Shown: piece by piece, positions 13,819 through 52,883 of the stretch
Numbering within the stretch: position 1 is the first letter of the stretch
Layout: each line of letters opens with the position of its first letter
Origin: an uncultured Gammaproteobacteria bacterium
GTDB taxonomy: Bacteria > Patescibacteriota > Microgenomatia > UBA8517 > JACQJR01
NCBI GenBank assembly: GCA_964442455.1
Contig: CAYTZB010000001.1
Coordinates: forward strand, 85,910-149,909
Direction of reading: 5' to 3'
DNA length: 64,000 bases
Notes under the pieces: model-generated
The model's database searches: none
Seen by the model: the letters and a program-made list of their open reading frames with translations, nothing else
What the model was told of the DNA's origin: nothing
Translations under genes and position numbers: made by a program

Positions 13819-13929
13819 TTGACCTAATTATTCTAATTTCTAAAGAATGTCTAATGACAATTTTAAGAATTTCATATTTGGGATTTCTTTAGGTTAATTA
13901 GAAATTAGTAATTAGAAATTTAAGTTTTT
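13795..13929. repeat. AT-rich intergenic repeat element B (CTAATT / TTAGAAATTAG motifs), copy 1
   Basis: Shares ATTAACCTAATTnACCTAATT, ATTTGGGATTT and AATTAGAAAT modules with 36437-36592. It contains the internal inverted repeat CTAATTTCTAA/TTAGAAATTAG. Confidence 0.5.
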
Positions 13930-25541: not shown

Positions 25542-26810
25542 ATGGCTAAAGGAAAAGTTATTGCCGGAATAGATATTGGTTCTTCCAAAGTTGCGACCGT
25601 CATAGGCAGTGCAAATCCAGAGGAAGAAGTACTACAAGTTTTGGGAGTGGCGTCTGTTCCTGCTCCGCCTGATGGAATTAAGAAGGGGCAAATTGTTGAT
25701 ATTGAGAAAGCCTCTGGGGCGGTTGTAGCTTCGGTTGAGAAAGCAGAACGGATGGCGGGGTTTGCACTCGATAACGTCGTCGTTGTTATTAATGGTGGAC
25801 ATATTCAGGGTCAAAACTCTCATGGGGTTGTTGCAATATCCTCCCCGGAGGGAGAGATAGAAGGAAGTGATGTTGAGCGGGTCATTGATGCCGCGCGTGC
25901 GATATCTCTTCCAGCTGGTCGCGAAGTTATTCATGTGCTCCCTTGTGAGTTTATTGTAGATGGGGAGAAAGGGATAAAGGATCCGGTGGGAATGAGTGGG
26001 GTGCGGCTTGAGGTAGAAGCGCATATTGTAACCGCGTCAACAACTGCCATTCGCAATTTAACCAAGTGTGTAAGTGAGGTGGGAGCGAGAATTTCCGGTG
26101 TGGTGTTCTCGGGGTTTGCCGCCGCCGCATCGGTGCTTTCTGATACCGAACGGGAACTAGGAGTCGTGTTAATTGACCTTGGAGCGGGGACGACCTCAAT
26201 TGCCGTTTTCACCGATGGCGCACTGGTTCACTCGCGAGTGCTTCCTATTGGTTCAAAAAATATTACCAATGATTTAGCTATAGGACTGCGCACCTCGCTT
26301 GAGAGTGCTGAGAAGATTAAAATTTCTCTCTCCGCAGCAAGTAAAAAAGACAAAGAGGAAGACGAGATAGACGTGTCGGGGTTGGGTGTTGATGGAGGGG
26401 AACGGACTGTGTCAAAAAGGACCCTTTCAGAGGGGATTATACGGCCTAGACTCAACGAAATTTGGAGTATGGTAGGGATGGAGCTCAAGGCCACGGGTCT
26501 TGGAGGGAGAACCCCGGCAGGAGTGGTGATTACCGGAGGGGGAGCGTTAACGGTAGGAGCGGTTGAGTCAGCACGGCGAATCTTAGCCCTTCCTGTTCGG
26601 GTGGGAATTCCCACCGGTATTTCGGGATTGGTTGACGATGTCTCAACGCCCGCATTTGCCGCAACGGTTGGGGCGGTTGCGTGGGCAGCACAAAACGTTG
26701 CCCCTCCTTCGGGTTTTCGTATTGGTCAGTTCACCCGTCCCTTCGAAAGCCTCCCTGTAAAAGGAGTGGTAGGCAAGGTGGTTGAGGTTATAAAAGGATT
26801 GCTGCCATAA
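25542..26810 (+). CDS. ftsA: cell division protein FtsA
   Basis: Actin-like ATPase. IAGIDIGSSKVATVIG, GGGHIQG and DLGAGTTSIAVF. Confidence 0.95.
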   Translation: MAKGKVIAGIDIGSSKVATVIGSANPEEEVLQVLGVASVPAPPDGIKKGQIVDIEKASGAVVASVEKAERMAGFALDNVVVVINGGHIQGQNSHGVVAISSPEGEIEGSDVERVIDAARAISLPAGREVIHVLPCEFIVDGEKGIKDPVGMSGVRLEVEAHIVTASTTAIRNLTKCVSEVGARISGVVFSGFAAAASVLSDTERELGVVLIDLGAGTTSIAVFTDGALVHSRVLPIGSKNITNDLAIGLRTSLESAEKIKISLSAASKKDKEEDEIDVSGLGVDGGERTVSKRTLSEGIIRPRLNEIWSMVGMELKATGLGGRTPAGVVITGGGALTVGAVESARRILALPVRVGIPTGISGLVDDVSTPAFAATVGAVAWAAQNVAPPSGFRIGQFTRPFESLPVKGVVGKVVEVIKGLLP

Positions 26811-26822
26811 AAGTTCATGGTT

Positions 26823-26850
26823 GAAGCGCGTCAGAAAACGCCGCTTTTCG
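26823..26850 (+). terminator. weak stem-loop downstream of ftsA (possible intrinsic terminator)
   Basis: GAAGCGCG, then the loop TCAGAAAA, then CGCCGCTTTTCG. The stem is imperfect (1-nt bulge) and the U-tract is short. Confidence 0.25.
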
Positions 26851-26999
26851 ATTAGCATACGAGGAATCAAAATTTTTTACTCCGTTGTCCCCTTGAGAAC
26901 TGCTAAAAATTTATTCACCTAAAACCTGAGGATATTTCTCGACTATAGGCTCATTTTGTGCTAAAATACGCTTGAAATGGTAGAAAAAGAAATCTTTTT

Positions 27000-27008
27000 G
27001 GTATAATT
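27000..27008 (+). promoter_or_regulatory. extended -10 promoter TGgTATAAT for the 590-aa gene
   Basis: Perfect TGnTATAAT lies 13 nt before ATG 27022. Confidence 0.4.
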
Positions 27009-27021
27009 AAGGCAAAATTTT

Positions 27022-28794
27022 ATGATCGCTGAACGTCAAGAAAATAAAGCCGTTCAATTGAACGGTCGAGATTGGTTATCCCCTGAGGTTGATGATATTG
27101 CACGTCAAGCAATTAGAGATATGGTGCCGCAGAGATCTGAGGATGGTAATGGTTTGCATTCACAGGAAGAGTTAAATAATGCATTATCAATTTCTTCCTT
27201 TCGTAGAAATGGTCTCCTTGGAATGTTACATATAAAATTTGATGGCGATATTGAGCAAGCTTTAAGATTTGCATATCCTGAGATTTTTAGAAAACCACTT
27301 TTACATCTTGATGAACCTCATTATGGTGATCCTTTTCAAGAAACATGGAGGGAAAGAGAACGCGAAATTGAAGGCAGAATAATATCGACGATGGAAAGGA
27401 GTAGGTTAGGTCATATCTATTTCTACGATAATGAAGTTATTGATAGTGATCAAAAAGCAAGGAAACTTATGAAATTGGGTAGACGGGTCGAGCGCCATGT
27501 AAACCGAAGAAATACCCGTGAACGTCATCACGAAAAAATAGACGTTGACGAATGGCAGGGAAGAGAAAATGAAGATTTTCAAAGAGCAATAGTTCGTTTT
27601 CTAAAACTTGGTGATAGCGTCGCAGGTTTTCTCGGCAGCAACGATACTGAAATTCCACGTTCTATTTTAAATCGAATTGGACAACAAGGAGTATTTTATA
27701 TGATAGGTCGCAGAAATTATCCTTATAACGAACTCGCCGGTTCATTTCCTAACGCAAATAATAGAGGAATCGAGGACGAACTTTTAGCAAGAGCTCTTGA
27801 GTTGGGAGAGTCTTTAATATTGAACAACTACGATCAAGAACAAATAAAAAAAACACTTAACGGTCATAAAATCTATCCAGTTGTCTACAGACCTCCCAAT
27901 CTTCCTGAAGAAATTTCTCGACATTCTTTAAATGCTTTCATTGTGAGCGATCGAGTAAGGGAAATTTTGGAAGAATTTAGGGAAGATTTCCTATGGGCAA
28001 TAGATTCAGCTTTAAAACAAGGTGGATATTTAATTTTTCGAGAAAACGCCAGGCAACAGACAAATATTGAGTACTATGGCCAAGATCTTTGGTCTAGCAG
28101 ATATCAAAGAGTAGGGACGGGAACGAAATCGGCCCAATTAATGATTTTTCGTAAAGTTGCTACAGGTAATTCTATGGTTAGTATTTCTCAAACAGTTTCA
28201 GAAAGTTCTCAATCGACTGAAAATGAAGAGGAATTTGGAGTGTGTACTATTGAACATAAGTGGGAATTTGAAAACGGAGAAGGGGCTGATAAGCAAATTT
28301 ACGCAGCACTTAAGCATGTTATTGAACAAAAACATAGATTAAACGGGGAAGTTACAGAAGCTCAACAGATAGACGAGTTACTAAAAGGAACGTTGAGCGT
28401 AAGTTGGTTTAGGAAAACTGGGCTTTTGCCAATCTTATTTAGTCGGTTTGGCGGAAGTGTTGAAAAAGCAGCGGAGTTTGTTATAGAACATAACCAAGCA
28501 GGAAGAACTCCTCCAACTATTATCCAAAGATCTCCTGAAGGGGCAAAATCCTCTTATAATCTCTACGATCTTGCCAAAGAATTGGGAGTTAGGATAGATG
28601 TTATTAGAAAAACTCTAAATAATGCTGGTATAAAAGGAGTACAGTCACAAAGAAATAAAGGGAATTTTCACCCCCAAACAAGTAGAATGCAATTTTCTTA
28701 TCAGGAGTTTTTAACATTAAGAGATGTATTACGGAGGGATTTAAATGTAGAAAAGGCTACCAAGGAAAGGAGCGATAATGCAGAGAGAATTTGA
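27022..28794 (+). CDS. hypothetical protein (590 aa) with two copies of a WF[RQ]K-GLL ... FA[YW]PE-F repeat module
   Basis: Long ORF. Its repeats SSFRRNGLLGMLHIKFDGDIEQALRFAYPEIF and SWFRKTGLLPILFSRFGGSVEKAAEFV are shared with the N-terminus of the following giant protein. The C-terminus is HTH-like. Confidence 0.65.
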   Translation: MIAERQENKAVQLNGRDWLSPEVDDIARQAIRDMVPQRSEDGNGLHSQEELNNALSISSFRRNGLLGMLHIKFDGDIEQALRFAYPEIFRKPLLHLDEPHYGDPFQETWREREREIEGRIISTMERSRLGHIYFYDNEVIDSDQKARKLMKLGRRVERHVNRRNTRERHHEKIDVDEWQGRENEDFQRAIVRFLKLGDSVAGFLGSNDTEIPRSILNRIGQQGVFYMIGRRNYPYNELAGSFPNANNRGIEDELLARALELGESLILNNYDQEQIKKTLNGHKIYPVVYRPPNLPEEISRHSLNAFIVSDRVREILEEFREDFLWAIDSALKQGGYLIFRENARQQTNIEYYGQDLWSSRYQRVGTGTKSAQLMIFRKVATGNSMVSISQTVSESSQSTENEEEFGVCTIEHKWEFENGEGADKQIYAALKHVIEQKHRLNGEVTEAQQIDELLKGTLSVSWFRKTGLLPILFSRFGGSVEKAAEFVIEHNQAGRTPPTIIQRSPEGAKSSYNLYDLAKELGVRIDVIRKTLNNAGIKGVQSQRNKGNFHPQTSRMQFSYQEFLTLRDVLRRDLNVEKATKERSDNAERI

Positions 28795-31700
28795 ATCTCA
28801 AAGAACGATAGAAATAACACCGGGCAAATCTCCAACTAATGAAGTTATAGAAAGGGTAGGTAGAGAAATAACTCACTGTGATTTGCTCCATATGTGGAAT
28901 TTTGAGGTGGATGGGAGGAACCAGCAAGAGATAGATGAAGAACTTCAGGAAGCAATAAGGCATGTTGTAACGTATACACATACCATCAATGGTGCAGAGT
29001 ATGGAGGCTACCTACCTGATGAGACACTTGAAGAAAAATTGAATTTAGCGTGGTTTCAGAAAGTGGGACTGTTAAAACCAGTGGCGTTGCAGTTTAAGGG
29101 TGAAATTGCAGATGTTGTTCGGTTTGCGTGGCCTGAAGGATTTCACCAGGAAGAGCAAGAGAGAGTCCAGGCGTTTCGTTTGAGACCAGATACAATTGAA
29201 TTTTGGCAGGAATTAAAGAAAGATCTAGAAGGAATACAAACGCCCAAAAATATGGCACTTTCAACTTTTATGATGTATTACGATCCTCGAACAAAAAGGC
29301 AATCTTATCTTGAGGGAGGTAAATATATATACCTTTACGGCCTCTTTTTTCAGGATACATTAGCTGAAGAGTCGATTCATAACCCGGTTGATTATTTAAG
29401 CTCCCGATTCAATCCACCTCGTGATAATCAAGAATTTATTGATCTAGTCAAGGAAACACGTGAGCTTGCGGAGATAAAGCTTCGTAAACCCTATGGAAGT
29501 GTTATGGACATACAAGAAAGGCTTGCAGATCCTAGTTTTTTGGAAGAGTTTGTAATAGATTTGAACGAATATACTGAAGATTTCACTTTTGCTAACTTTA
29601 TGCAAGGCTGGTTGAATTATACAACTCCCAATGGTGACATCATACGGTGGAGTGCTAGAGGAAAGTACAGAGAGCTTCTCAATGATCTTTTAGCACGAAG
29701 GTGGATTGCACAACTGGGCGAAAATGCCGGTTCTGAATCTACACCAAAAAAACCCGCTGAAATATTTTATGAAGCTGCTCCGCAGAACCTCAAACTTTTA
29801 CTTTTGGCGAAATTTCCGAAGGATTTTTCCCATCTTACACTCGAAAGTTTGGAACAGAGTCAGGTAGTGTCAGATGAAGTTCGTGCAATACTTGAAGAGA
29901 CCAGCTTACTGGGAGTTGATAGTCAAGATCGTATTTTAGAGACGCTTGGGAATTATATCTTAGCTAAACATAAAAATAATGAAAGTCTTAATTATCTTGA
30001 TGGTCAACGAATTAAGACGATTTTACTTCAAGTTTCTCAACAAATTCTTCCCGCAGTTATTAGAAGAGCTGCTTCTTCCAAAACGGAGAGCGTTTTAACC
30101 GATAGTCGCATAGTTCCTACAGTTTTGAGCGAAGCAAACTCAGAGAATCAAGAAGTTGCTGACTCTGCCCAAGAGTTGTTGGAATCTCTTAGGGAGGCGT
30201 ACTACTTTCCCCTGCTTAAAAGTTTACTTTACAAACCAACAGCGCTTTTTTGGACTTCATATTTAACTGAGCACCCCGAAGAGGTAACAGTTCCTCCTGC
30301 CATGTTAATTAATTTCCTTGAAAAGCATTTAAAAGGAAGAGTAGAAGAAATTGCTCTTCAAGGCGATCAAAAAGAGGTTCTTGGTTATTTAAGTCAAGAG
30401 GTACTTCCTAATGTCTATCGCCACTTTGCTGAAGTTGCTACCTTTGCCCAGACAATTGCTCACTTTAGAACAAAGGATATTGAAGGGAAACCTCAACATT
30501 TACTTTTTCACCAAGTAGAAGGAATTAAGAAATTGATCGAAGATAAAGGCGGAATTGTATCAGATGAACCTGGTACTGGCAAAACACTTATACTTGCGCT
30601 TTCTGCACTTAATCTGATGGACAGAAGCGGAATTGTTGGACGAGGTACACCTGGGCGCGCTTTAGTAGTTGGGACAAAATCAGTAATAGATAATTGGGAA
30701 AGTGAACTGGATGCACATATACGAACAGACTATATAGATGTTGTAAATGTCAACTTCACCAATCAGAAAGATAGACAAGTGAGTAGAGATGAGTTACAAG
30801 CCCGGTTACGTGAGCTAGAAAGATTACTTCGAAACCCTAGACATCAGAGACAAATGGTATTGGTCAATTACGATTTGTTCAGACACCCTACATTTAAAAA
30901 GATTTTGGGATCTTATCCGTTTGATTCTGTGATAGTTGATGAGGCACATAACGTTAAATCTCGGTTTCTTGAATCAATTAATACCTATGAGAAAAGCGAT
31001 GATTTACGGAGTAGCACGAGTGTAGCTAAAAGAACAAGGGGTCTTTATAGCTACATCAGAACTAGTCCTGACCTTTCTGTATTTTTTGCCACGAGTACAC
31101 CTTATGTTAAAGAGCTTGTCGAACCTCTTATTATGGCGCATTTAGTTAACGAACAACTTGTACCTAGAGAAAGGGTACAACAACTTATGGAAGATACTGT
31201 TGGAACTCACCAAGTATTAAGACAAGTGATGATTCGCAGAAAGAAAGAGGAGATAGCTGACTTACCACCTAAAGAAACGGTAGTAGTTCCGATTGATCTT
31301 ACTTTGCTTTCCGAGGAGGAGAAGCAAGAGTTTAAAGCAATAGCACAAGAGATTATGGAGAACGAAAATTTTGCTGCACGGTTTTATTCAATGCTTTCGC
31401 TTGAAGGTTTGGCCAAATATCCCTGGTTGACAGAAAAGGTTAAAGAGCTTATTTCAGATGGTCGCAAGGTAATTATCTTCACCCCCTTTGTGGTTGGAGA
31501 AAATCGATATACTGCGCCGATTAGTACCGCACGAATAGCAGCAAAATTAATGGGTGCAGGAATTCCAATCAACTCAGTTGCTGTTTTGGACGGAAGTTTA
31601 GATGAAGGAGAACGAATTAGTGTGCAAGGACGTTTTCGTAACCAGCGAGATCCGAAAGTTTTAGTTGGTAATTACATTACCGCAGGAGAGTCAATAACAC

Positions 31701-34700
31701 TCAACTCACCCACCAATAGAGCTACGGAAGTAATTATCTTTGTGGGGCCAAATACAATTACTCGCTATATTCAAGGGGTTGACCGAAGCCACAGAATTGG
31801 GCAAACAGAAAAAGTTACCATTCACATACCATATGTTACTGGAGATTTGCTTGGACGAGGTGAGACCTACGACGAAGCAGTAATTAAACGACTTATGGAT
31901 GAACTGGTAGTTTTTGGAGCTGTCGTCGACGGGCGATTCTTTATGGAGCCAAAAGATATCTATCAATCAATTATTCAAACAGATAGAGCAAAACCGAGAG
32001 GTAGTGTTGAATTTACACGAGAGCATCGACAACGATCAAGAGAGAGGCGACGTGGTCCTTATACACCTCGGTTGCCCGGAGAACCAACTCCAAGAGTAAT
32101 GATAAGTGAAGATGAGGTTATCGATTTTGGATGGATGCAAAATATTCGTGAGGTTGTTACTCGTGAGAGCGAGTCTGAACAGGATATAGTGAGAATGTAT
32201 CTAGAGCAGATAGGACAATACCCACTATTTAATCCGGATAATCCAAATCACGAAAGATTGGCGTTCGATTATTTTAAAAGTGACAGAACCCTTGATGAAT
32301 TAAAGATAGATTCAGAATTTCTTTCAATGATTAATCCGCGAGATAGAGAAGATTTTGGACGTGTTCTGACTGATAGCCAAAGTATTCAAGATTTAATTAT
32401 TAACTGTAATCTCCGCTTGGTAGTTTCAGTAGCTCGTCAACGTCAAGGTCGCGGCTTACCCCTTTTGGATTTAATACAAGAAGGAACATTTGGCTTAATG
32501 CATGCGGTTGAACTCTTCGAACCCGAGCGAGGAAATAAATTTTCAACATACGCAACGTGGTGGATACGCCAAAGTATAAACAGAGCGATCATGAATTCTT
32601 CGCAGACAATCCGATTGCCAGTTCATATGTATGAAAGAATTGGTTTGGCTCGGAGATTTGCAAGAGAATTTGAAGCTACAAATGGTCGCACCCCAAAAGT
32701 GAGTGAGCTGCGCGAGTTAGTTTTAACTCAAACAAAGTTTTCCGAAAGTGAAGTTGACTCTGTAATCGAAACCATTGCTTCAGGAGTTATGCAAATGGGC
32801 ACTTTGGACTTTGAGATTGGGGAAGATGGAGAAGATACATTATATGATGTCGTTGCCGACAAGAGAATGGATGTTGAAGCAACTGTTTTGGAAGAAACAG
32901 AGGATGATGAGCTGAATACTGAGGTAAAGAGGGCTCTGAAAGAGAATTTGGATGAAAGAGAAAGAAGAATAATAGAGTTAAGATTCGGTTTGGGTGAAAC
33001 AAGAGAGAGAACTCTAGAAGAAGTCGGACAAGAATTTGGATTGACACGAGAACGTGTTAGACAGATTCAGGAAAGAAGTTTAGGCAAACTTAGTAGAGAC
33101 AAACAATTACGCGCTCGGTGGGAAGGCGATGCTCCGAGTTTTGTGTATCATACGAGTGCAGAGCAAGCAGCCATCAGGTTAGGATTATTCAATAAGAAGC
33201 AAAGTTATGTCGAGAAAGTTGTCGCAGAGTTACCTCCCCATCTTCAGAGTGTGCTTAATCAACGTATTCTCAAAGCAGCATCTTTGATAAATGGAGATGC
33301 ACAAAATGGGACTTCCGAAGTGGATCAAAGTTATCAATTTACACTTGCACGACTTGCAGTATGGGAGAAGTTAGGGACACTTTATCCAGACGATTTAACT
33401 GACTCACGGCAACGTCGTGAAATATATGGAAAAGATTTTGGGCCATATTTTGACCTATCGCTTATGAAACGGTTGTATGAGCGAAGGGATGGTAGAGTTA
33501 GACTGTTAGATAATCGAGTGTTATCGCACTTTTTTGGATTTGGCGATGGTCAGAAACCCCTCTTAAGTGTAGAGAAAGTTACTCAAGAGCTAGGAATTCC
33601 ACAGGATACAGTTACCGCGGGTCTTCATAAGGGGTTGCAGGTACTTGAAGCTCCACCAGAGAAGAAAACCAGAGCAGAAGAGCTCAGCAGAGAACACAGC
33701 ATTGTTGCACAGGCGTTTCGCAATCAAGAGATTTGGGATCAAATTCCTGATAGAGAAAAAAGCATATTAACACTCTATTTCATACGTGGTGGCGATCAAC
33801 AAGTATTAAAAGAGAATTTTTCGAGAATTTTCGGGATTTCTCTGCCTGAAGTAGATGCACGAATAAACGCTGCAGTAGAGTTAACTGAACGACTTTTAAC
33901 AGAAATTCAGGCTAAACCAGAACGTCAACGAAGGGTAACAAGAGGAGAACTTAGAGATATGGTTGAAGGATTATTGAAAGAGTATCCTTGGTTGAGCAAT
34001 AGCGAAGTAACAGAGCATCTTTCAACAAAACTAAAACAAGATTTAAGCAAAGCTCGTGTTGACCAAGCGAGGAAGAGCTTGGTTGCCCTTGAGAGAGTAG
34101 AGTCACGGCGTGGAAAATTAGATATACTTGACTCAAGAGTCGAAGCATTACTACTCCAAGGATTAAAACCCCAGCAAATTGCTGAGAGTTTGGTTCAATC
34201 AGAAAAAAGAGTTATTGCTTCTATAAGAAGATTGATTAGCACAGGAAATCTTGATACCCAACTTATTCAGTGGAGAAACGATGGCCTTTCAAAGGAAGAA
34301 ATTGCTGAAAGAATAGGAAGTTCAGCTGTTACCATAGGGAGAAGGCTCCGGGTACATGTTGAATCTGGTGCTCTACCTTTCCATCCTCGTGATCCTCGGA
34401 CAGTTGATGATTCTGGAGTTACCGAGCACGTCAGAAACCTAGACGGTATGGTTGAGTCATTGATTCTTCAAGATCCAAAAATAAAAACTAAAGAAATTAT
34501 TGCTGCATTGGAACCTACAGTAGGAAAATACATGGCGGAATTAACAATCCGGAGAGCAAAGAAGCGGCTGGTAGCTGCAGGGAGAATACCTTCTCATTTA
34601 TTTAATCTTACCCATGAGGAAGCAGTAGCTTTAGATCAACAAGTAGAAGAATTGGTAAAAAACGGAAATCTCTCTTATAAAGAGATAGCTGCTGCATTGA

Positions 34701-34951
34701 ATCAGCCAATCAGCAGAATTAGAAATTCTAAAGAAAGACTTGTCAAGACTCGCAGAATTGAGCCTAATCCAAAGTATGTTGACAAAGGAGCTAGTGCAGC
34801 TCTAGAGGAGTACTTATCAACACATCATGGTGATGAAATTAATTTATCAGAGTTTGCGCGCTCTATTGGTATTAGCCGCGAACGCGCAAGCCAACTCTAC
34901 AAGCGGTTAACCAATTCGCAGCTTAAGGAATTAATGACGCGGAGGAAGTAA
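28778..34951 (+). CDS. giant multidomain protein (2057 aa): N-terminal unknown region, SNF2-family ATPase/helicase, complete sigma-70 (regions 1.2, 2, 3, 4) and a C-terminal array of HTH repeats
   Basis: SNF2 motifs: LLFHQVEGIKKL, DEPGTGKTL, VIVDEAHNVK, and helicase-C QGVDRSHRIGQ. Sigma motifs: VRMYLEQIGQ, DLIQEGTFGLMHAVELFEPERGNKFSTYATWWIRQSINRAI, RLPVHMYERI, and LRFGLGETRERTLEEVGQEFGLTRERVRQIQERSLGKL. A strong RBS (GGAAAGGAG) sits 6 nt upstream, with a 17-nt overlap onto the preceding gene. Confidence 0.85.
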   Translation: MQREFESQRTIEITPGKSPTNEVIERVGREITHCDLLHMWNFEVDGRNQQEIDEELQEAIRHVVTYTHTINGAEYGGYLPDETLEEKLNLAWFQKVGLLKPVALQFKGEIADVVRFAWPEGFHQEEQERVQAFRLRPDTIEFWQELKKDLEGIQTPKNMALSTFMMYYDPRTKRQSYLEGGKYIYLYGLFFQDTLAEESIHNPVDYLSSRFNPPRDNQEFIDLVKETRELAEIKLRKPYGSVMDIQERLADPSFLEEFVIDLNEYTEDFTFANFMQGWLNYTTPNGDIIRWSARGKYRELLNDLLARRWIAQLGENAGSESTPKKPAEIFYEAAPQNLKLLLLAKFPKDFSHLTLESLEQSQVVSDEVRAILEETSLLGVDSQDRILETLGNYILAKHKNNESLNYLDGQRIKTILLQVSQQILPAVIRRAASSKTESVLTDSRIVPTVLSEANSENQEVADSAQELLESLREAYYFPLLKSLLYKPTALFWTSYLTEHPEEVTVPPAMLINFLEKHLKGRVEEIALQGDQKEVLGYLSQEVLPNVYRHFAEVATFAQTIAHFRTKDIEGKPQHLLFHQVEGIKKLIEDKGGIVSDEPGTGKTLILALSALNLMDRSGIVGRGTPGRALVVGTKSVIDNWESELDAHIRTDYIDVVNVNFTNQKDRQVSRDELQARLRELERLLRNPRHQRQMVLVNYDLFRHPTFKKILGSYPFDSVIVDEAHNVKSRFLESINTYEKSDDLRSSTSVAKRTRGLYSYIRTSPDLSVFFATSTPYVKELVEPLIMAHLVNEQLVPRERVQQLMEDTVGTHQVLRQVMIRRKKEEIADLPPKETVVVPIDLTLLSEEEKQEFKAIAQEIMENENFAARFYSMLSLEGLAKYPWLTEKVKELISDGRKVIIFTPFVVGENRYTAPISTARIAAKLMGAGIPINSVAVLDGSLDEGERISVQGRFRNQRDPKVLVGNYITAGESITLNSPTNRATEVIIFVGPNTITRYIQGVDRSHRIGQTEKVTIHIPYVTGDLLGRGETYDEAVIKRLMDELVVFGAVVDGRFFMEPKDIYQSIIQTDRAKPRGSVEFTREHRQRSRERRRGPYTPRLPGEPTPRVMISEDEVIDFGWMQNIREVVTRESESEQDIVRMYLEQIGQYPLFNPDNPNHERLAFDYFKSDRTLDELKIDSEFLSMINPRDREDFGRVLTDSQSIQDLIINCNLRLVVSVARQRQGRGLPLLDLIQEGTFGLMHAVELFEPERGNKFSTYATWWIRQSINRAIMNSSQTIRLPVHMYERIGLARRFAREFEATNGRTPKVSELRELVLTQTKFSESEVDSVIETIASGVMQMGTLDFEIGEDGEDTLYDVVADKRMDVEATVLEETEDDELNTEVKRALKENLDERERRIIELRFGLGETRERTLEEVGQEFGLTRERVRQIQERSLGKLSRDKQLRARWEGDAPSFVYHTSAEQAAIRLGLFNKKQSYVEKVVAELPPHLQSVLNQRILKAASLINGDAQNGTSEVDQSYQFTLARLAVWEKLGTLYPDDLTDSRQRREIYGKDFGPYFDLSLMKRLYERRDGRVRLLDNRVLSHFFGFGDGQKPLLSVEKVTQELGIPQDTVTAGLHKGLQVLEAPPEKKTRAEELSREHSIVAQAFRNQEIWDQIPDREKSILTLYFIRGGDQQVLKENFSRIFGISLPEVDARINAAVELTERLLTEIQAKPERQRRVTRGELRDMVEGLLKEYPWLSNSEVTEHLSTKLKQDLSKARVDQARKSLVALERVESRRGKLDILDSRVEALLLQGLKPQQIAESLVQSEKRVIASIRRLISTGNLDTQLIQWRNDGLSKEEIAERIGSSAVTIGRRLRVHVESGALPFHPRDPRTVDDSGVTEHVRNLDGMVESLILQDPKIKTKEIIAALEPTVGKYMAELTIRRAKKRLVAAGRIPSHLFNLTHEEAVALDQQVEELVKNGNLSYKEIAAALNQPISRIRNSKERLVKTRRIEPNPKYVDKGASAALEEYLSTHHGDEINLSEFARSIGISRERASQLYKRLTNSQLKELMTRRK

Positions 34952-34995
34952 GAAAGTTGCTTTTACGCTTCTTGTAAGCTATACTACACACCGAT

Positions 34996-36351
34996 ATGGC
35001 AATAGAGAAACTTTTTTCAAGAATGAGGCAAGATGCCCTCGATAGCGCTTCTGGCCTTTCTGAAGAGCAAGCACATTTATTGCGTGAGGGAAAGGTAGAA
35101 GATGCTGAACAGAGAATGAACCAGGTGAAAATCGAGATAGCTAAAGCAAAAAAGGTTAATAGGATCGTTGCTGATATGTTGGATATTTTACGTGCAGCAG
35201 GTTTTGAACAACCTCCTGCTGAGTATCTTGAGCAAGTAGTAGCAAGAGAAGTATCAACTCCCGAACCCGTTTATGTAAAAGGGCAAAAATCGGGTCTTTT
35301 TAGTTTCCTCGCTCGATTATTTCCTTCAAAACAAGAACAAATATTTATTCCTGGACGACCCATTTCTCCTCTTAATCTTGTCGAAGAAGTTATGGGATCA
35401 AGACCAGTTGTAGAGGAGACAAGCGAAGAAGTGAAAGAGATTGGAGATATAGATAGAGAAGGAGAGGAAGTGGTAGCGGCAGTACCAACTCCTCCAATTG
35501 AAGCCAAAAGAGTGAGAGGTGATTTTGTGGAGCGCGAAGAAAAATTAGTATACGCAGCTCTTGCTGTTAATCCTAATAGAGATGGATTTCAATTTGAATC
35601 ATGGAGGAGTGTGTGGCGCCAGGCGTTTTCTGATGCCTTCGAGAATATTACCGATGAAAGAGAGCGTGACGATAAAGAAAAAAATTCGCAGATAGCCTCA
35701 TATTCTGCCCGCAGTGCTATTATTGTCAAACTTCAAAGAGTCAAAACTAATGCTCAGGACATTCCCCCTAAAGTAGCGAGTTTTCTTGAATGGGTTAAAA
35801 CTCAACCAGAATACGTTAATCTAAGTGTTGATGATATCTCCCTAATTATACAAAGACAAATAACCTTTGATGAAATTCGTCAAAAGGCAAGCCAAGCAGT
35901 AAATATCTTGCAAATAGAATCGCAACCCACAGAAGAGCAAGCGGTTTCTGGGGAACAAACTGAGTCAGTTCCACAACTGCCCTCGATTCAAGCATCAGAA
36001 AGCAGGGCAACAGAGCCACAAACGCTACAGTTAACAGGGCCAGAGCTTCACTTGCTTGCGCAGAAGTTACTTCAGGCAGCGCCAGCAGTATTAGAAAGAA
36101 CAGGAATAAGAATTCACACTGCAGATAGAGAAGAGATAGGTGGAATTATGGGGCGGCTCGCAAGTTCACCAGAAACTCTTCGTGCAAGCGAAACTTCTCT
36201 TGAAAGTCTCACACAGAAACTTGCTGCATATCTAAAAGACAAAGAAAAAGTATTTATGGAAAATGTCAGCAATGAGGATGCTCAGTATTTGATTACGTTT
36301 GTTGCGGGTATCAGTTCTGAAGACCTATTAAAAGAGTTTTTAAGTAGTTGA
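34996..36351 (+). CDS. hypothetical acidic protein (451 aa), co-located with the SNF2-sigma gene
   Basis: Long ORF rich in Glu and Gln. No recognised domain. Confidence 0.6.
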   Translation: MAIEKLFSRMRQDALDSASGLSEEQAHLLREGKVEDAEQRMNQVKIEIAKAKKVNRIVADMLDILRAAGFEQPPAEYLEQVVAREVSTPEPVYVKGQKSGLFSFLARLFPSKQEQIFIPGRPISPLNLVEEVMGSRPVVEETSEEVKEIGDIDREGEEVVAAVPTPPIEAKRVRGDFVEREEKLVYAALAVNPNRDGFQFESWRSVWRQAFSDAFENITDERERDDKEKNSQIASYSARSAIIVKLQRVKTNAQDIPPKVASFLEWVKTQPEYVNLSVDDISLIIQRQITFDEIRQKASQAVNILQIESQPTEEQAVSGEQTESVPQLPSIQASESRATEPQTLQLTGPELHLLAQKLLQAAPAVLERTGIRIHTADREEIGGIMGRLASSPETLRASETSLESLTQKLAAYLKDKEKVFMENVSNEDAQYLITFVAGISSEDLLKEFLSS

Positions 36352-36407
36352 CGCTTCTTTCCTCTCACCCAGAGATTCCCAGATGGCGATACGGCTCACT
36401 CGACCCC

Positions 36408-36436
36408 TTGACAACTCCTGAAAATTTATCCACAAT
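36408..36436 (+). promoter_or_regulatory. putative ftsZ promoter CCCCTTGACA, 17-nt spacer, CACAAT
   Basis: TTGACA at 36408-36413. The 17-nt spacer contains TGAAAATTTATC. The -10-like CACAAT is at 36431-36436. Confidence 0.4.
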
Positions 36437-36592
36437 AGGCCACAAGTGAAATTAACCTAATTAACCTAATTGCTCTAATTGATCTAAATTTTGAAGATTT
36501 GTAGTTTAAAAATTGGGATTTATTTAGAAATTAGAATAATTAGAAATAAGCAGAGCTTGTTTCTCGCAAGCTCGAAATTAGAAATTTTTAAA
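36437..36592. repeat. AT-rich intergenic repeat element B, copy 2 (upstream of ftsZ)
   Basis: Modules ATTAACCTAATTAACCTAATT, ATTGGGATTT and TTAGAAATTAGAATAATTAGAAAT are shared with 13795-13929. Confidence 0.5.
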
Positions 36593-37720
36593 ATGGCTCT
36601 TGTTAAACCAGATACCACGCGGTTGGCAAAAATTCGAGTAATTGGGGTTGGTGGCGGTGGGGGGAACGCAATTAACTCCATGATCTCCCAAGATAAGATT
36701 TCCGGAGTTGAGTTCATTGCCGTTAATACAGATGCACAAGTCCTTCTCTCAAACCTCGCGTCCACAAAAGTTCAAGTTGGTGAAAAATTGACGCGCGGGT
36801 TGGGTGTTGGGGGAAATCATGAGCTTGGGAAACAAGCAGCGGAGGAATCAAGAGAAAAAATTAAAGAACTGCTTCTTGACTCTGATATGGTATTTATTAC
36901 TGCAGGTATGGGTGGAGGGACTGGAACTGGGGCTGCACCGATTATTGCCGAGGTCGCGCGTGAGGTGGGGGCGTTGACGATTGCTATTGTTACCAAACCT
37001 TTTGCCTTTGAAGGTGCACGGCGCGCAGTAGTAGGAGAAGAGGGAATTGAAGCGCTTAAAGGAAAGGTTGATACGCTCATTATCATTCCCAATCAGCGGT
37101 TGATGGATGTCATTGACCGGAAGGTGACGCTACTTGATGCGTTCCGCCTGGCCGACTCGGTGCTCTCGCAAGGTGTACAAGGAATTTCTGAAATTATCAC
37201 CCAACCGGGACTTATTAACGTTGACTTTGCGGATGTAAAAGCAATTATGACCCAAGCAGGCTCAGCGCTTCTTGGCATTGGTACGGGAGTTGGTGAAGCG
37301 CGGGCACAAATGGCAGCACGGGCAGCAATTTCCTCTCCTCTTCTTGACTTATCAATCGAGGGTGCAAAGGGAGTGTTGTTTAATATCTCGGGTGGCCCGG
37401 ACTTGACTATGGCGGAGGTTGATGAGGCAGCGCGAATTATCGCCGAGCATTCCGATGCAGACGCAAACATTATTTTTGGTGCATCAATTGACCAACGGTT
37501 GTCCGATCAAGTACGTATTACAGTTATTGCGACCGGTTTTGATGAGGCGCGGGCACGACTTGCGCAAATAACCCAAACCGCAGTCAAACCTCAACCAACC
37601 CTTGAGTCGACAGAAGAGACTCGTGGGGAAAACGAGGAGGAAGAAAAGGCAGAAGAACCCAAGGATGATGAGTTTGGAGAACGCTTCGAAATACCAGCGT
37701 TTCTAAGACAGGGCCGCTAG
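36593..37720 (+). CDS. ftsZ: cell division protein FtsZ
   Basis: GGGGGNAIN tubulin signature, T7 loop, and the C-terminal conserved peptide DDEFGERFEIPAFLRQGR. Start ATG 36593 (MALVKPDTTRLAKIRVIGVGGGG). The longer caller ORF from 36491 is an upstream extension. Confidence 0.95.
   Translation: MALVKPDTTRLAKIRVIGVGGGGGNAINSMISQDKISGVEFIAVNTDAQVLLSNLASTKVQVGEKLTRGLGVGGNHELGKQAAEESREKIKELLLDSDMVFITAGMGGGTGTGAAPIIAEVAREVGALTIAIVTKPFAFEGARRAVVGEEGIEALKGKVDTLIIIPNQRLMDVIDRKVTLLDAFRLADSVLSQGVQGISEIITQPGLINVDFADVKAIMTQAGSALLGIGTGVGEARAQMAARAAISSPLLDLSIEGAKGVLFNISGGPDLTMAEVDEAARIIAEHSDADANIIFGASIDQRLSDQVRITVIATGFDEARARLAQITQTAVKPQPTLESTEETRGENEEEEKAEEPKDDEFGERFEIPAFLRQGR
37669..37707 (+). repeat. 39-bp direct repeat, left copy (ftsZ 3' coding end)
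   Basis: Identical to 40512-40550: TGAGTTTGGAGAACGCTTCGAAATACCAGCGTTTCTAAG. Confidence 0.9.
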
Positions 37721-37766
37721 CTTCTAGGATAAAACCTATAATATTTCTTCTACTCTTTAGTTGATA

Positions 37767-37775
37767 TGGTATACT
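37767..37775 (+). promoter_or_regulatory. extended -10 promoter TGgTATACT for the helicase gene (leaderless configuration)
   Basis: TGGTATACT lies 6 nt before ATG 37782. Confidence 0.35.
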
Positions 37776-37781
37776 ATCGGC

Positions 37782-40514: not shown

Positions 40515-40550
40515 GTTTGGAGAACGCTTCGAAATACCAGCGTTTCTAAG
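40512..40550 (+). repeat. 39-bp direct repeat, right copy (displaced remnant of the ftsZ 3' end encoding ..EFGERFEIPAFLRQGR*)
   Basis: Identical core. It is followed by AGGCAAGGAAGATGA, whereas ftsZ itself has AGACAGGGCCGCTAG. Both encode RQGR-stop. Confidence 0.9.
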
Positions 40551-40571
40551 GCAAGGAAGATGAGGGTAACA

Positions 40572-41147
40572 CTACCTTCTCGGGAGTATGATTGAAGTTG
40601 GCGGCTCAAGCGAAAGGTTTCCCATCTTCAAAAACATACACGCAAGTGCAAACCCATAATCATCTTTTAATGACTCGGGTACTGTTAATGCTTCTCTGAA
40701 TCTGCGTGGCCATAATACCTTTATTACTCTCTCCCCGTTTTCTCGCTTGGAACTTTCAAGACCGGCTACGACTTCTACATGAGGCAAAAGCGACAAGATA
40801 AGTTGTCGAGCCAACGGATCGCGAGTGTTAGGGAATGGTTGTCTCGGAAGTGATTCAATAATCCCATTAACCAGATTAAGTTCTTGTTTCACTTCTTCTT
40901 GTGTGGTTGCGGTGAAATCAAATTCCATAAAACGGATAGTCCCTGAAATTTCATCAAAATAGACGATATAGACACTCTGTAGATGTCTTGTCTGGTCAGG
41001 TCCTATTTGTGCTCGGGTAGGTCGGACAATTCTATGACGGAATTCTTCTGACATGTAGAGTTGTTCAAGAAGATCTGCAACACGTGCCTGATCGCTTGAT
41101 TTAAGCTGTTCTATTATTGGGGCAATACCAGTACGTTCCTGCCGCAT
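40572..41147 (-). CDS. hypothetical protein (191 aa)
   Basis: ORF with no recognised domain. Confidence 0.5.
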   Translation of the reverse strand: MRQERTGIAPIIEQLKSSDQARVADLLEQLYMSEEFRHRIVRPTRAQIGPDQTRHLQSVYIVYFDEISGTIRFMEFDFTATTQEEVKQELNLVNGIIESLPRQPFPNTRDPLARQLILSLLPHVEVVAGLESSKRENGERVIKVLWPRRFREALTVPESLKDDYGFALACMFLKMGNLSLEPPTSIILPRR

Positions 41148-41229
41148 ATAGGGTGTCAGTATAGCACTTGCCCGATACCTCCTTCAATTTCTGTCCGAGT
41201 TTTAGTATAATACCTCGAGAAGAACAAGT

Positions 41230-41883
41230 ATGAGACCAGAACAGGGAAGGGGTATTACTCCTTCACAAATTATTACACAAGCAGAGATGACGACGTTGCT
41301 ATCCGAGAGAAGTGGACATCCCTTTTCTCTGTTGCGAACGCGTGCACTCGCACTTAATTATGTCGGGAGGGAAGCGGTTAATTCGGTATTAGATAGGTTG
41401 GGCACAAGAGGGAATATAATTGCAGCAATTTCACCAGATACTCGTTTCTATGCACGGCGATTACAAGGAACACAACAAGAGCAGATATTTGACGAAGGAG
41501 TTGGGTGTATTATTCTTGGAACAACCATTCTTTCTCTTGAAGATGCTATTTTAGACTGGGAGTGGAAGGACAAACTGCTTGAGGATAATTTCAACCGCGT
41601 GGTTAGTGGTACTCCTCTGCCAAAACTGCCTTTAGAAGCGATTGTCCGAAAAACTCCGGCAAATAAAAGAGATATATCTCCCAAACAAGTCTTCGATCGG
41701 ATATTACGGGAGGCGGCGCGCGATACAAGTTTTCAAGGATTTTTTACGTCCGAAGGCATGGAAGTTAACCCTCCGGCGGTGGTTAGTACGTTCCTTCGTG
41801 CGAATGAACGGTCAGTCAGAGCAGCATTACTTCTCTATCGTGAAGTCGTTGCTGCGGGTTTAAAGCAGCATCTTCAATTTTGA
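41230..41883 (+). CDS. hypothetical protein (217 aa)
   Basis: ORF with a TATAAT at 41208-41213 upstream. Confidence 0.5.
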   Translation: MRPEQGRGITPSQIITQAEMTTLLSERSGHPFSLLRTRALALNYVGREAVNSVLDRLGTRGNIIAAISPDTRFYARRLQGTQQEQIFDEGVGCIILGTTILSLEDAILDWEWKDKLLEDNFNRVVSGTPLPKLPLEAIVRKTPANKRDISPKQVFDRILREAARDTSFQGFFTSEGMEVNPPAVVSTFLRANERSVRAALLLYREVVAAGLKQHLQF

Positions 41884-51056: not shown

Positions 51057-51069
51057 GTACCAATTTTAA

Positions 51070-52850: not shown

Positions 52851-52883
52851 TCATATATTCATATATGAATAGCAGATTGTGAT

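What the first reader, a model, noticed from the sequence alone, without database searches (positions are those of the whole stretch)
26889..36441. About 9.5-kb three-gene block inserted between ftsA and ftsZ, bounded by imperfect 38-bp direct repeats of the ftsZ promoter region
ftsA and ftsZ are adjacent in almost all dcw clusters. Here they are separated by three genes: a 590-aa protein, the 2057-aa SNF2-sigma fusion and a 451-aa acidic protein. The sequence CCCCTTGAGAACTGCTAAAAATTTATTCACCTAAAACC (26889-26926) just after ftsA is 29/38 identical to CCCCTTGACAACTCCTGAAAATTTATCCACAATAGGCC (36404-36441), which forms the ftsZ promoter. The 17-nt spacer is almost identical. This is consistent with a target duplication generated when the block was inserted. 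The 590-aa and 2057-aa genes overlap by 17 nt, with a strong internal RBS, which suggests one operon driven by the TGgTATAAT at 27000.
Basis: partly seen in the sequence, partly recalled or inferred. Interest (0 to 1): 0.75.

Follow-up and report, generated by a model that had tools for sequence, protein, structure and literature searches.

The report
Accessory gene cassette between ftsA, ftsZ
A 9.6-kb three-gene cassette, whose main product fuses an SNF2 DNA motor to an RNA-polymerase sigma factor, sits between two normally adjacent cell-division genes of an uncultured Microgenomates (CPR) bacterium, is flanked by a duplicated ftsZ promoter, and is absent from a sister strain that shows the empty site.

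Summary
ftsA (25542-26810) and ftsZ (36593-37720) are separated by three co-oriented genes of 590, 2057 and 451 aa. The flanking 38-mers match 29/38, against a window-wide background maximum of 23/38.

The insertion reading is supported. A relative with 97% identical FtsZ (L024) has ftsA, 25 nt, one promoter copy identical to copy 2, 15 nt, then ftsZ. Two more distant clade members are also adjacent. The cassette's GC3 is 0.25-0.30, against 0.42-0.43 for ftsA and ftsZ.

New points:
- The ftsA-ftsZ gap is a recurrent insertion spot in this clade. Three other relatives carry unrelated cargo there.
- A second insertion in the window, a 910-aa ResIII helicase after ftsZ, is flanked by a 45-nt repeat of the ftsZ 3' end. 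A cargo gene in relative L002 is flanked by a repeat of the ftsA 3' end.
- The three-gene module recurs in six other contigs in different contexts, two next to type IV secretion genes.
- The SNF2-sigma70 fusion belongs to a rare family of about 20 clusters. I found no description of it in the literature searches I ran.

No recombinase or terminal inverted repeats were found, so the insertion mechanism is inferred rather than shown. The function of the fusion protein is also inferred.

The parts
25542..26810 (+). ftsA, the left flank of the insertion. Its 3' end is resident-like: 90-100% identical to L024 in the last 180 nt.
   Evidence: Pfam FtsA and SHS2_FTSA; identity profile
26811..26888 (+). 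78-nt stretch between the ftsA stop and repeat copy 1. It has no counterpart in the 25-nt spacer of the empty site and no match in any fetched locus.
26880..26926 (+). Direct repeat copy 1, a decayed ftsZ-promoter copy: CCCC TTGAGA, 17-nt spacer, CACCTA. It matches copy 2 at 29/38 (31/39 in the extended register).
26999..27007 (+). TGGTATAAT extended -10 motif, 14 nt before the gene-1 ATG; candidate cassette promoter. A second candidate, TGcTAAAAT, ends at 26967.
   Evidence: inference only, no transcript data
27022..28794 (+). Gene 1 (590 aa). It has two copies of a roughly 85-125-aa domain shared with the N-terminus of gene 2. It also has a methyltransferase-like core (LKQGGYLIFRENARQQTNIEYYGQDL) and a C-terminal HTH-like segment. 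No database family reaches its threshold.
   Evidence: weak Methyltransf_11 hit in homologue L035_g1; AF2 model unusable
28778..34951 (+). Gene 2 (2057 aa), the SNF2-sigma70 fusion. Parts: shared domain at aa 26-170 (28853-29287); family-specific region at aa 171-560; SNF2 ATPase at aa 560-1045 (30455-31912); sigma70 regions 1.2-4.2 at aa 1130-1445 (32165-33112); C-terminal HTH array at aa 1450-2057.
34996..36351 (+). Gene 3 (451 aa, acidic). It follows a gene-2 homologue in all five loci whose sequence extends past gene 2 (L018, L019, L033, L034, L035); L023 ends within its gene-2 homologue. It has no known domain; two homologues carry an inserted OmpR-type winged helix.
36395..36441 (+). Direct repeat copy 2, the ftsZ promoter (TTGACA 36408-36413, 17-nt spacer, CACAAT 36431-36436). 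It is 100% identical over 37 nt to the single copy in L024 and over 32 nt to that in L001. The -35 and -10 elements are conserved in L002, L028 and L029.
36439..36592 (+). 154-nt AT-rich ftsZ leader (CTAATT repeats at 9-nt spacing, ATTAGAAAT repeats). It belongs to a small repeated intergenic element family and is not part of the cassette. L024, L001, L028 and L029 lack it upstream of ftsZ.
36593..37720 (+). ftsZ, the right flank of the insertion. Its last 60-110 nt are unusually diverged from L024 and L001 (72-86%, against 90-100% for most of the gene).
37669..37713 (+). Copy A of a 45-nt direct repeat covering the last codons of ftsZ. The first 39 nt are identical to copy B. The tail then encodes the same QGR-stop with different codons.
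37782..40514 (+). Second insertion: a 910-aa ResIII/DEAD helicase with about 5 C-terminal repeats. It is absent from L024, L001 and L025. It is 53% identical to a helicase that lies upstream of ftsZ in L028.
40512..40556 (+). Copy B of the ftsZ 3'-end repeat (43/45 to copy A). It is a non-coding remnant whose tail resembles the native ftsZ end of L001.

Best explanation
The block is a horizontally acquired accessory cassette that entered the chromosome at the ftsZ promoter of a Microgenomates (CPR) bacterium.

Shown:
- A sister lineage has the empty site with one promoter copy.
- The cassette has lower GC3 than its neighbours.
- The same three-gene module occurs elsewhere in unrelated contexts, two of them next to type IV secretion genes.
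- The ftsA-ftsZ gap carries different cargo in several clade members.
- Two other insertions at ftsA or ftsZ are likewise bracketed by 34-45-nt copies of the target.

Inferred, insertion mechanism: the cassette has no recombinase and no inverted ends. I therefore think it integrated by recombination between the chromosomal ftsZ promoter and a short homologous copy carried on the incoming, probably circular, DNA. That would be a Campbell-type single crossover, carried out by host RecA or by an integrase supplied in trans. This leaves one copy on each side. The copy that drives the essential ftsZ stayed under selection and is 100% conserved. The upstream copy decayed at 9 of 38 positions.

Inferred, why this site: ftsZ has its own strongly conserved promoter, so DNA inserted upstream of it does not cut off ftsZ expression.

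Inferred, function: gene 2 is an alternative sigma factor. Its regions 2.2, 2.3-2.4, 3.0 and 4.2 look like those of primary sigma factors, so it should bind core RNA polymerase and read TTGACA/TATAAT-type promoters. Its covalently attached SNF2 motor has intact ATPase motifs and would supply ATP-driven DNA translocation at or near promoters. Gene 3 always follows gene 2 and is the likely regulator. Gene 1 shares a domain with the gene-2 N-terminus and is a likely binding partner.
For: Empty site: L024 reads ftsA stop, 25 nt, CCCCTTGACAACTCCTGAAAATTTATCCACAATAG, 15 nt, ATG ftsZ. L031 and L032 are also adjacent. In total 14 of 20 surveyed loci are adjacent.

Lineage-specific duplication: copy 1 is closer to its own lineage's promoter (29/38) than the orthologous promoters of L029, L002 and L028 are (27, 25 and 24/38).

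Age: copy 1 versus copy 2 has a JC distance of 0.285, against a four-fold-site divergence of 0.26 between the window and L024. The event is therefore about as old as that split.

Composition: GC3 is 0.25, 0.30 and 0.28 for the cassette genes, against 0.43 and 0.42 for ftsA and ftsZ.

Module in other contexts: L018, L019, L023, L033, L034 and L035 at 24-47% amino-acid identity. Gene 3 follows gene 2 wherever the sequence extends far enough. Neighbours include a T4SS pilin in L023, a T4SS coupling protein in L035, and Fic and PIN proteins in L033.

Recurrent insertion spot: L028 has HepT/MNT plus a helicase, L029 has two small genes, and L002 has a 562-aa gene.

Analogous target repeats: ftsZ 3' end at 43/45; ftsA 3' end in L002 at 24/34 with a 13/14 core ending at both stop codons.

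Sigma and SNF2 integrity: Pfam and NCBIfam hits; PDB SigA at 5e-52. The motifs DLIQEG, FSTYATWWIRQ, TIRLPVH and TRERVRQI are conserved across the family. SNF2 motifs I, II and VI are invariant in 9 members.
Against: No circular intermediate, hybrid junction or recombinase was observed.

The 78 nt left of copy 1 do not match the empty site. The event was therefore not a simple one-step insertion, or the spacer had already changed.

Mismatches between the copies are scattered rather than showing a sharp crossover boundary. This fits old decay as well as a foreign copy.

The other cargo in the gap in L028 shows no flanking repeat, and in L029 only the 133-aa gene has one, which is not a promoter copy. 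Target duplication is therefore not universal.

The rest of the L024 genome is unseen. The module could sit elsewhere in it and be less dispensable than assumed.

The function of the fusion rests on sequence conservation only. The SNF2 part shows no specific affinity to RapA.
Confidence: 0.6

Rival explanations
1. The block is ancestral at this locus, and L024 and its kin lost it by recombination between the two promoter copies, which would leave a single copy behind.
For: Direct repeats are substrates for precise deletion. The divergence of copy 1 (JC 0.285) is at least as large as the one-lineage neutral divergence since the split from L024, which is about 0.13. The duplication could therefore predate that split.
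Against: Adjacency is found in L024, L031 and L032, and probably in L001 and L025, and in 14 of 20 surveyed loci. The cassette has lower GC3 than its flanks. Homologous modules sit in unrelated contexts. Even under this view, an earlier insertion is still needed to create the repeats.
Confidence: 0.1
2. The cassette arrived by ordinary homologous replacement: a double crossover in ftsA and ftsZ with DNA from a relative that already had it at the same locus. On this view the repeats record an older event in the donor, not an insertion in this lineage.
For: CPR bacteria are thought to be naturally competent (my own knowledge). The scattered mismatches of copy 1 fit an old or foreign allele. The 78-nt left spacer differs from that of L024. 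The ftsZ 3' end shows locally raised divergence, which suggests imported segments nearby.
Against: The ftsA 3' end and the ftsZ 5' end next to the cassette are as similar to L024 as the rest of those genes, at 90-100% and 96%. Copy 2 is 100% resident-like. No donor lineage with the block at this locus was found in any collection searched.
Confidence: 0.15
3. The element inserted by a transposition-like staggered cut that generated a true target-site duplication of about 38 nt.
For: Three insertions around ftsA and ftsZ have flanking duplications of similar length: 34, 38-39 and 39-45 nt.
Against: Pfam, PHROGs, NCBIfam and PADLOC find no transposase or casposase in the cassette, and Pfam finds none in the other 23 window ORFs scanned. 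There are no terminal inverted repeats. In the helicase case, the DNA just inside copy A re-encodes the native FtsZ C-terminus (QGR-stop) with different codons. The incoming DNA therefore carried ftsZ-derived sequence, which is not what a staggered-cut fill-in predicts.
Confidence: 0.07
4. The arrangement is an assembly chimera, or the repeat similarity is convergent promoter consensus.
For: This is a metagenome-assembled sequence. Logan contigs break near both repeats (L020 covers 26845-36478; L022 ends at 26874). L001 and L025 both carry 100-N runs at exactly this junction.
Against: L021, from a different run, spans ftsA into gene 1. L020 spans copy 1 through copy 2 at 100% identity. The background maximum for the 38-mer is 23/38. 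The spacer similarity is lineage-specific and CCCTTGAC is unique in the window.
Confidence: 0.03

Closest known systems
Genomic islands and integrative mobilizable elements that integrate at the end of a conserved gene and carry a replacement copy of it (for example SGI1 at the trmE 3' end, and islands targeting dusA; PMC8409611)
   Same: The insert is bracketed by direct repeats made of target sequence. An empty site with one copy exists in a close relative. The target gene's function is preserved: here the ftsZ promoter, and for the helicase insertion the FtsZ C-terminal codons. Related modules lie next to conjugation (T4SS) genes.
   Different: No integrase, excisionase, relaxase or oriT-like feature was found in the 9.6-kb cassette. 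The target is a promoter rather than a coding end. The repeats are 24% diverged. The cargo is only three genes.
Campbell-type single-crossover integration and homology-facilitated illegitimate recombination of foreign DNA
   Same: Both give direct repeats of a short homologous segment on each side of the insert without an element-encoded recombinase. In the helicase case there is a sharp switch from identical sequence to a foreign synonymous tail, as expected at a crossover.
   Different: No circular form or donor was observed. At about 40 nt, the homology is near the lower limit for RecA-dependent recombination (my own knowledge).
Group 1/2 sigma70 factors (RpoD/SigA, RpoS)
   Same: Regions 1.2, 2, 3 and 4 are present, with primary-sigma-like motifs for core binding, -10 melting, the extended -10 and the -35.
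   Different: The scores are below every NCBIfam equivalog cut-off (for example 241 against 384.5). There are about 1100 extra N-terminal residues, including an SNF2 ATPase, and about 600 C-terminal residues of HTH repeats. The gene is accessory and absent from this locus in the sister strain.
RapA/HepA, the RNA-polymerase-associated Swi2/Snf2 ATPase of E. coli (PMC8501970)
   Same: An SNF2 motor is functionally tied to bacterial RNA polymerase. RapA and sigma70 act on the same core enzyme, so a fusion is a plausible 'Rosetta-stone' link.
   Different: No RapA chain appears among the 56 PDB matches of the SNF2 profile; the nearest is 8qy7 at E 2.5e-14. RapA is a separate protein, not fused to sigma.
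MzaA, the sigma70-family protein of the MZA anti-phage system (NCBIfam NF041931, PADLOC PDLC02203)
   Same: It is the best-scoring named family for the sigma part, and it is also a sigma domain at the C-terminus of a larger accessory protein.
   Different: The score is 243 bits against a cut-off of 800. Only the sigma region aligns. PADLOC finds no Mza or other defence family for the two partner genes.

Membership tests
Transposon / insertion sequence with target-site duplication | Element-encoded transposase | tested here: not met
   Pfam, PHROGs, NCBIfam and PADLOC scans of the three cassette proteins give no transposase or recombinase family.
Transposon / insertion sequence with target-site duplication | Terminal inverted repeats at the element ends | tested here: not met
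   The inverted-repeat search of 26000-38000 finds no pair located at the two ends.
Transposon / insertion sequence with target-site duplication | Duplication that directly abuts the element and is otherwise identical to the empty site | tested here: inconclusive
   One copy is present in the empty site. However, the copies are 76% identical, and the sequence left of copy 1 does not match the empty-site spacer.
Integrase-mediated genomic island / IME (att-flanked) | Direct repeats (attL/attR) that include target sequence, with an empty attB in relatives | tested here: met
Integrase-mediated genomic island / IME (att-flanked) | Tyrosine or serine recombinase gene at one end of the island | tested here: not met
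   None is found in the cassette, nor by Pfam in the other 23 window ORFs scanned. About 20 further window ORFs were not scanned. An integrase encoded elsewhere in the genome cannot be excluded.
Integrase-mediated genomic island / IME (att-flanked) | Excision to a circular form | not testable with these tools
   This needs read-level data from SRR12113420, SRR12113422 and SRR12113430.
Sigma70 family, group 1/2 | Regions 1.2, 2, 3 and 4 in order | tested here: met
   Pfam Sigma70_r1_2 (weak), r2, r3 (weak) and r4. NCBIfam TIGR02997 aligns positions 1-297 of 298. PDB SigA at 5e-52.
Sigma70 family, group 1/2 | Score above the curated RpoD/RpoS equivalog cut-offs | tested here: not met
   241 against 384.5 (TIGR02997), 220 against 555 (RpoD), 227 against 394 (RpoS). 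It is a sigma70-family member but not an orthologue of a named sigma factor.
Sigma70 family, group 1/2 | Binds core RNA polymerase and directs promoter-specific initiation | not testable with these tools
   Only motif conservation across 15 family members is available.
RapA/HepA | Specific sequence relationship to RapA beyond the generic SNF2 core | tested here: not met
   A profile of 9 family SNF2 domains against the PDB returns 56 matches. None is named RapA or HepA; the best is 8qy7.
MZA defence system (MzaA) | Full-length match above the cut-off, with the partner genes MzaB-E | tested here: not met
   243 bits against 800, sigma region only. PADLOC gives no hits for genes 1 and 3.
Zorya (ZorD) | ZorD-type SNF2 with nuclease, plus ZorA/B/C | tested here: not met
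   Only 52-bit partial hits to the SNF2 core. PADLOC gives no hits for the two partner genes.
SNF2 family ATPase | Motifs I (GxGKT), II (DExH) and VI (QxxDRxHRxGQ) intact | tested here: met
   DEPGTGKT, DEAH and Q..DR.HR.GQ are invariant in the 9-member alignment A4. Pfam SNF2-rel_dom at 4.7e-16 and Helicase_C.

The most novel reading that the evidence does not exclude
There are two linked novelties.

1. The SNF2-sigma70 protein and its two obligate partners form a previously undescribed class of ATP-powered transcription-initiation factor. It is found only in Microgenomates/CPR bacteria and travels with mobile DNA (T4SS-linked islands).

2. This lineage has recombinase-less gene cassettes that integrate at the termini of essential cell-division genes: the ftsZ promoter, the ftsZ 3' end and the ftsA 3' end. 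They carry a 35-50-nt copy of the target, so the essential gene is always restored. This would be an integration strategy like that of tRNA-targeting islands, but without a self-encoded integrase.
Probability: 0.25. Interest if true: 0.8.

Novelty: new variant of a known kind. Interest (0 to 1): 0.62.

Why it matters
ftsA-ftsZ adjacency is one of the most conserved gene pairs in bacteria. In one CPR clade the gap between them is instead a recurrent landing site for accessory DNA. Each event leaves a copy of the target that keeps the essential gene working. That gives a concrete, testable example of how tiny, streamlined CPR genomes take up new genes without harming core functions.

The cargo is interesting in itself. 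A sigma factor covalently joined to a chromatin-remodeller-type motor would be a new way to couple ATP hydrolysis to bacterial transcription initiation, a role so far associated with sigma54 activators. It occurs in a rare family that public annotation labels only 'sigma-70 family'.

Tried and rejected
No fold search was run.
- Searching the gene-1 family in JGI metagenome contigs and IMG/VR found nothing.
- The SNF2-core profile found three true family loci in metagenomes. In viral contigs it found only generic SNF2 proteins at 21-43% identity, the higher values over short stretches, so there is no support for a phage origin.
- Rfam found no RNA family in 26000-41500. There is no tRNA gene near the insertion.
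- A gene-3 family profile against the PDB and Pfam gave only noise, apart from an inserted Trans_reg_C domain in two members.
- The 562-aa gene in the same gap of L002 is unrelated to gene 1.
- L001 looked like an empty site, but it has a 100-N run at exactly the junction, as does L025. I did not use it as evidence for adjacency.
- RapA, MzaA and ZorD memberships were considered and rejected.
- The non-coding flanks of the cassette (26811-27021, 36352-36403) match nothing else fetched, so no conserved element ends were found.
- Four of the five literature searches targeted SNF2-sigma fusions or insertion between ftsA and ftsZ in CPR. None found a prior description. One candidate paper read in detail did not mention such a fusion.

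Full report
**What is in the sequence.**
The window is a chromosomal division and cell-wall (dcw) cluster of a Patescibacteria/Microgenomates-type genome. It contains mraZ, mraW, Mur ligases, murB, murA-like, mraY, murD, ftsW, murG, an ftsQ-like gene and ftsA. Further on come ftsZ, ileS, a second ftsW/rodA, L21, L27 and parB.

ftsA ends at 26810. ftsZ most likely starts at the ATG at 36593. Between them lie three co-oriented ORFs: 27022-28794 (590 aa), 28778-34951 (2057 aa) and 34996-36351 (451 aa). Genes 1 and 2 overlap by 17 nt, behind an AAGGAAAGGAG Shine-Dalgarno-like run.

**The repeat.**
The sequence at 26889-26926 matches 36404-36441 at 29/38, or 31/39 in the register found by the repeat finder.
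- The next best match to either copy in the whole window, on both strands, is 23/38.
- The best 38-mer match between the two intergenic regions is 30/38. In 300 shuffles the mean was 21.7 and the maximum 25.
- The octamer CCCTTGAC occurs once in the window. A degenerate pattern covering the -35 element and spacer finds only these two sites.

The similarity is therefore neither chance nor a general promoter consensus.

Copy 2 is a good sigma70-type promoter: TTGACA, 17 nt, CACAAT. It is the ftsZ promoter of the whole clade. It is 100% identical over 37 nt in L024 and over 32 nt in L001, and recognisable in L029, L002 and L028 at 27, 25 and 24/38. Copy 1 is closer to its own lineage's version than those orthologues are, particularly in the spacer. 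That argues for a lineage-specific duplication.

**The empty site.**
FtsZ homologues were ranked and their contigs fetched.
- L024 (FtsZ 97% identical, FtsA 94%, core-gene DNA 85-93%) reads: ftsA stop, 25 nt, the single promoter copy, 15 nt, ATG of ftsZ.
- L031 and L032 (FtsZ 80-81%) are also adjacent.
- L001 and L025 (FtsZ 98%) appear adjacent but carry a 100-N run exactly at the junction, so I do not count them.
- Across 20 loci that hold both genes, 14 are adjacent.

The filled arrangement is not an assembly artefact. Two independent Logan assemblies reproduce ftsA into gene 1 (L021) and 26845-36478 (L020) at 100% identity.

GC3 of the three genes is 0.25, 0.30 and 0.28, against 0.43 for ftsA and 0.42 for ftsZ.

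Four-fold-site divergence between the window and L024 is 0.26. Copy 1 versus copy 2 gives 0.285, and all of that change is in copy 1, because copy 2 is identical to L024. The event is therefore old, about the age of that split, or copy 1 came from a somewhat diverged source.

**Not a clean target-site duplication.**
The 78 nt between the ftsA stop and copy 1 have no counterpart in the empty site or in any fetched locus. Copy 2 is followed by a 154-nt AT-rich leader that L024 lacks. That leader belongs to a separate small repeat family. It also occurs upstream of the murC-like gene at 13800-13930, upstream of ftsZ in L002, and partly in L024. The cassette has no transposase, integrase or terminal inverted repeats, and no tRNA gene lies nearby.

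**A recurrent landing site with recurrent target copies.**
Three clade members carry unrelated cargo in the same gap:
- L028 has a 103-aa gene, a HepT/MNT toxin-antitoxin pair and an 815-aa ResIII helicase.
- L029 has a 105-aa gene and a 133-aa Trp-repressor-like HTH gene.
- L002 has a 562-aa gene.

In the window a second insertion, a 910-aa ResIII helicase at 37782-40514, lies just after ftsZ. It is absent from L024, L001 and L025. It is 53% identical to the L028 helicase, which lies on the other side of ftsZ.

That insertion is bracketed by a 45-nt repeat of the last ftsZ codons, matching 43/45. The first 39 nt are identical in both copies. The ftsZ-proximal copy then continues with different codons for the same QGR-stop, while the distal remnant keeps a native-like tail resembling L001. 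So the incoming DNA carried ftsZ-derived sequence. That is what a homology-based or att-type integration predicts, and not what a staggered-cut fill-in predicts.

In L002 the cargo ORF ends with a copy of the ftsA 3' end: 24/34, with a 13/14 core, and both copies end at their stop codons. In L029 the HTH gene is flanked by 27-nt direct repeats.

The likely reason the site tolerates insertions is that ftsZ has its own highly constrained promoter immediately upstream. This is an inference.

**The cargo.**
Gene 2 carries an SNF2 ATPase at aa 560-1045. Motifs I, II and VI are invariant across 9 family members. It also carries a complete sigma70 segment at aa 1130-1445, covering regions 1.2 to 4.2.

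The sigma motifs for core binding (DLIQEG), -10 recognition and melting (FSTYATWWIRQ), the extended -10 (TIRLPVH) and the -35 (TRERVRQI) resemble those of primary sigma factors. They are conserved in most of 15 family members. The assignment of these motifs to those functions is from my knowledge of E. coli sigma70.

The sigma scores are below all equivalog cut-offs. The top named hit, MzaA, scores 243 bits against a cut-off of 800. The SNF2 profile hits generic remodellers, and its best PDB match is 8qy7. No RapA chain appears.

A scan of 1.84 billion cluster representatives found about 20 clusters with a contiguous SNF2-plus-sigma match, 1183-2158 aa long. One is annotated only as 'sigma-70 family RNA polymerase sigma factor [Candidatus Daviesbacteria bacterium]'. 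They share the family-specific N-terminal region and variable C-terminal HTH arrays.

Gene 1 has two copies of a domain also found at the gene-2 N-terminus. It also has a methyltransferase-like LKxGGYLIFRENA core, and one homologue has a weak Methyltransf_11 hit. Gene 3 has no known domain.

**The module elsewhere.**
Homologous modules occur in L018, L019, L023, L033, L034 and L035. Gene 3 follows gene 2 wherever the sequence extends far enough. Gene 1 is usually present and is replaced by a Fic protein in L033. None of these lies between ftsA and ftsZ.

L023 has a T4SS pilin gene immediately upstream. L035 has a T4SS coupling protein about 4.4 kb downstream. L033 has VWA, Fic and PIN neighbours. 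No close relative is on a viral contig. The module therefore behaves as mobile accessory DNA, possibly linked to conjugative islands.

**Interpretation.**
The insertion itself and the duplicated promoter are well supported. My preferred mechanism is recombination between the chromosomal ftsZ promoter and a short homologous copy on a circular incoming molecule, followed by decay of the unselected copy. This is an inference. It rests on the lack of any recombinase or inverted ends and on the two analogous events. The rivals are listed with their tests: ancestral presence with loss, homologous replacement from a donor that already carried the block, transposition, and artefact.

The functional proposal is an accessory sigma factor with a tethered ATP-driven DNA motor, regulated by gene 3 and partnered with gene 1. 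It rests on motif conservation and gene linkage only.

**Novelty.**
Islands flanked by target repeats are well known. What is unusual here is the target (the promoter and coding ends of ftsA and ftsZ), the absence of a self-encoded recombinase, the recurrence of the pattern in one CPR clade, and the cargo. No description was found in four targeted full-text searches.

Noticed in passing
window 37669-40556: A second insertion relative to L024, L001 and L025: a 910-aa ResIII helicase with about 5 C-terminal repeats. It is flanked by a 45-nt direct repeat of the ftsZ 3' end (43/45, first 39 nt identical). The ftsZ-proximal copy re-encodes QGR-stop with different codons. The helicase is 53% identical to one lying upstream of ftsZ in L028. 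It has weak PADLOC hits to PbeA and a type IV restriction enzyme.
   Followed up: yes
window 36439-36592 and 13800-13930; L002 13090-13213 and 1-77; L024 3115-3151: A small AT-rich repeated intergenic element (CTAATT at 9-nt spacing, ATTAGAAAT, TTTGGGATTTATTTAG). It ends right at the start codons of ftsZ and a murC-like gene. It is present upstream of ftsZ here and in L002 but not in L024, L001, L028 or L029. It could be a mobile leader or promoter, or a regulatory site family of the dcw cluster.
   Followed up: partly
window 40572-41883 vs L001 6898-8151 / L024 11140-12342: The two small genes between ftsZ and ileS are in swapped order: 191 aa (-) then 217 aa (+) here, but (+) then (-) in relatives. 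The (-) gene is only 73-75% identical in DNA, while its neighbours are 86-88%. This suggests a further imported or rearranged segment next to the helicase insertion.
   Followed up: partly
L002 11226-11259 and 12944-12977; L029 9336-9362 and 9769-9795: Other cargo genes in the ftsA-ftsZ gap of relatives are also bracketed by direct repeats. The 562-aa ORF of L002 ends in a copy of the ftsA 3' end (..GLLA-stop versus ..GLLP-stop). The 133-aa HTH gene of L029 is flanked by 27-nt repeats (81% identical) that contain palindromic TATCGATA-like cores.
   Followed up: partly
L001 5600-5699; L025 5579-5678: Two separately assembled contigs of the closest Hainich-aquifer relative each have a run of exactly 100 N ending at the same base, just before CTTGAC of the ftsZ promoter. 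This could be a scaffold gap caused by a structural polymorphism at this very site, or it could be masking.
   Followed up: no
window 10666, 12456, 18252, 26999, 37767, 56609(-), 58400: TGGTATAMT (an extended -10) occurs 7 times against 0.7 expected. At gene 1 and at the helicase it lies only 14 and 6 nt before the ATG, which implies very short or absent leaders for both acquired genes.
   Followed up: partly
window 50007-53795: A low-GC stretch (GC 0.32-0.40, GC3 0.26-0.28) encodes a Kelch-repeat protein, a class I methyltransferase and a GT4 glycosyltransferase. It is probably another acquired or surface-glycan island.
   Followed up: no
L031 11170-11832 (-); L028 6487-7339 (-): An IS200/IS605-type Y1 transposase lies directly downstream of ftsZ in L031. 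A HepT/MNT toxin-antitoxin pair lies in the ftsA-ftsZ gap of L028. Both show that the surroundings of ftsZ collect mobile and defence-type genes in this clade.
   Followed up: no
L011 and L016 (Patescibacteria, FtsA 37% identical): ftsA and ftsZ are separated by about 1.1-1.2 kb in two distant Patescibacteria. Interruption of this gene pair may therefore be more widespread in CPR.
   Followed up: no
L019 7306-8877 and L033 13003-14460: Two gene-3 homologues carry an inserted OmpR/PhoB-type winged-helix domain (Trans_reg_C, best E 3.3e-5). This hints that the partner protein can bind DNA.
   Followed up: no
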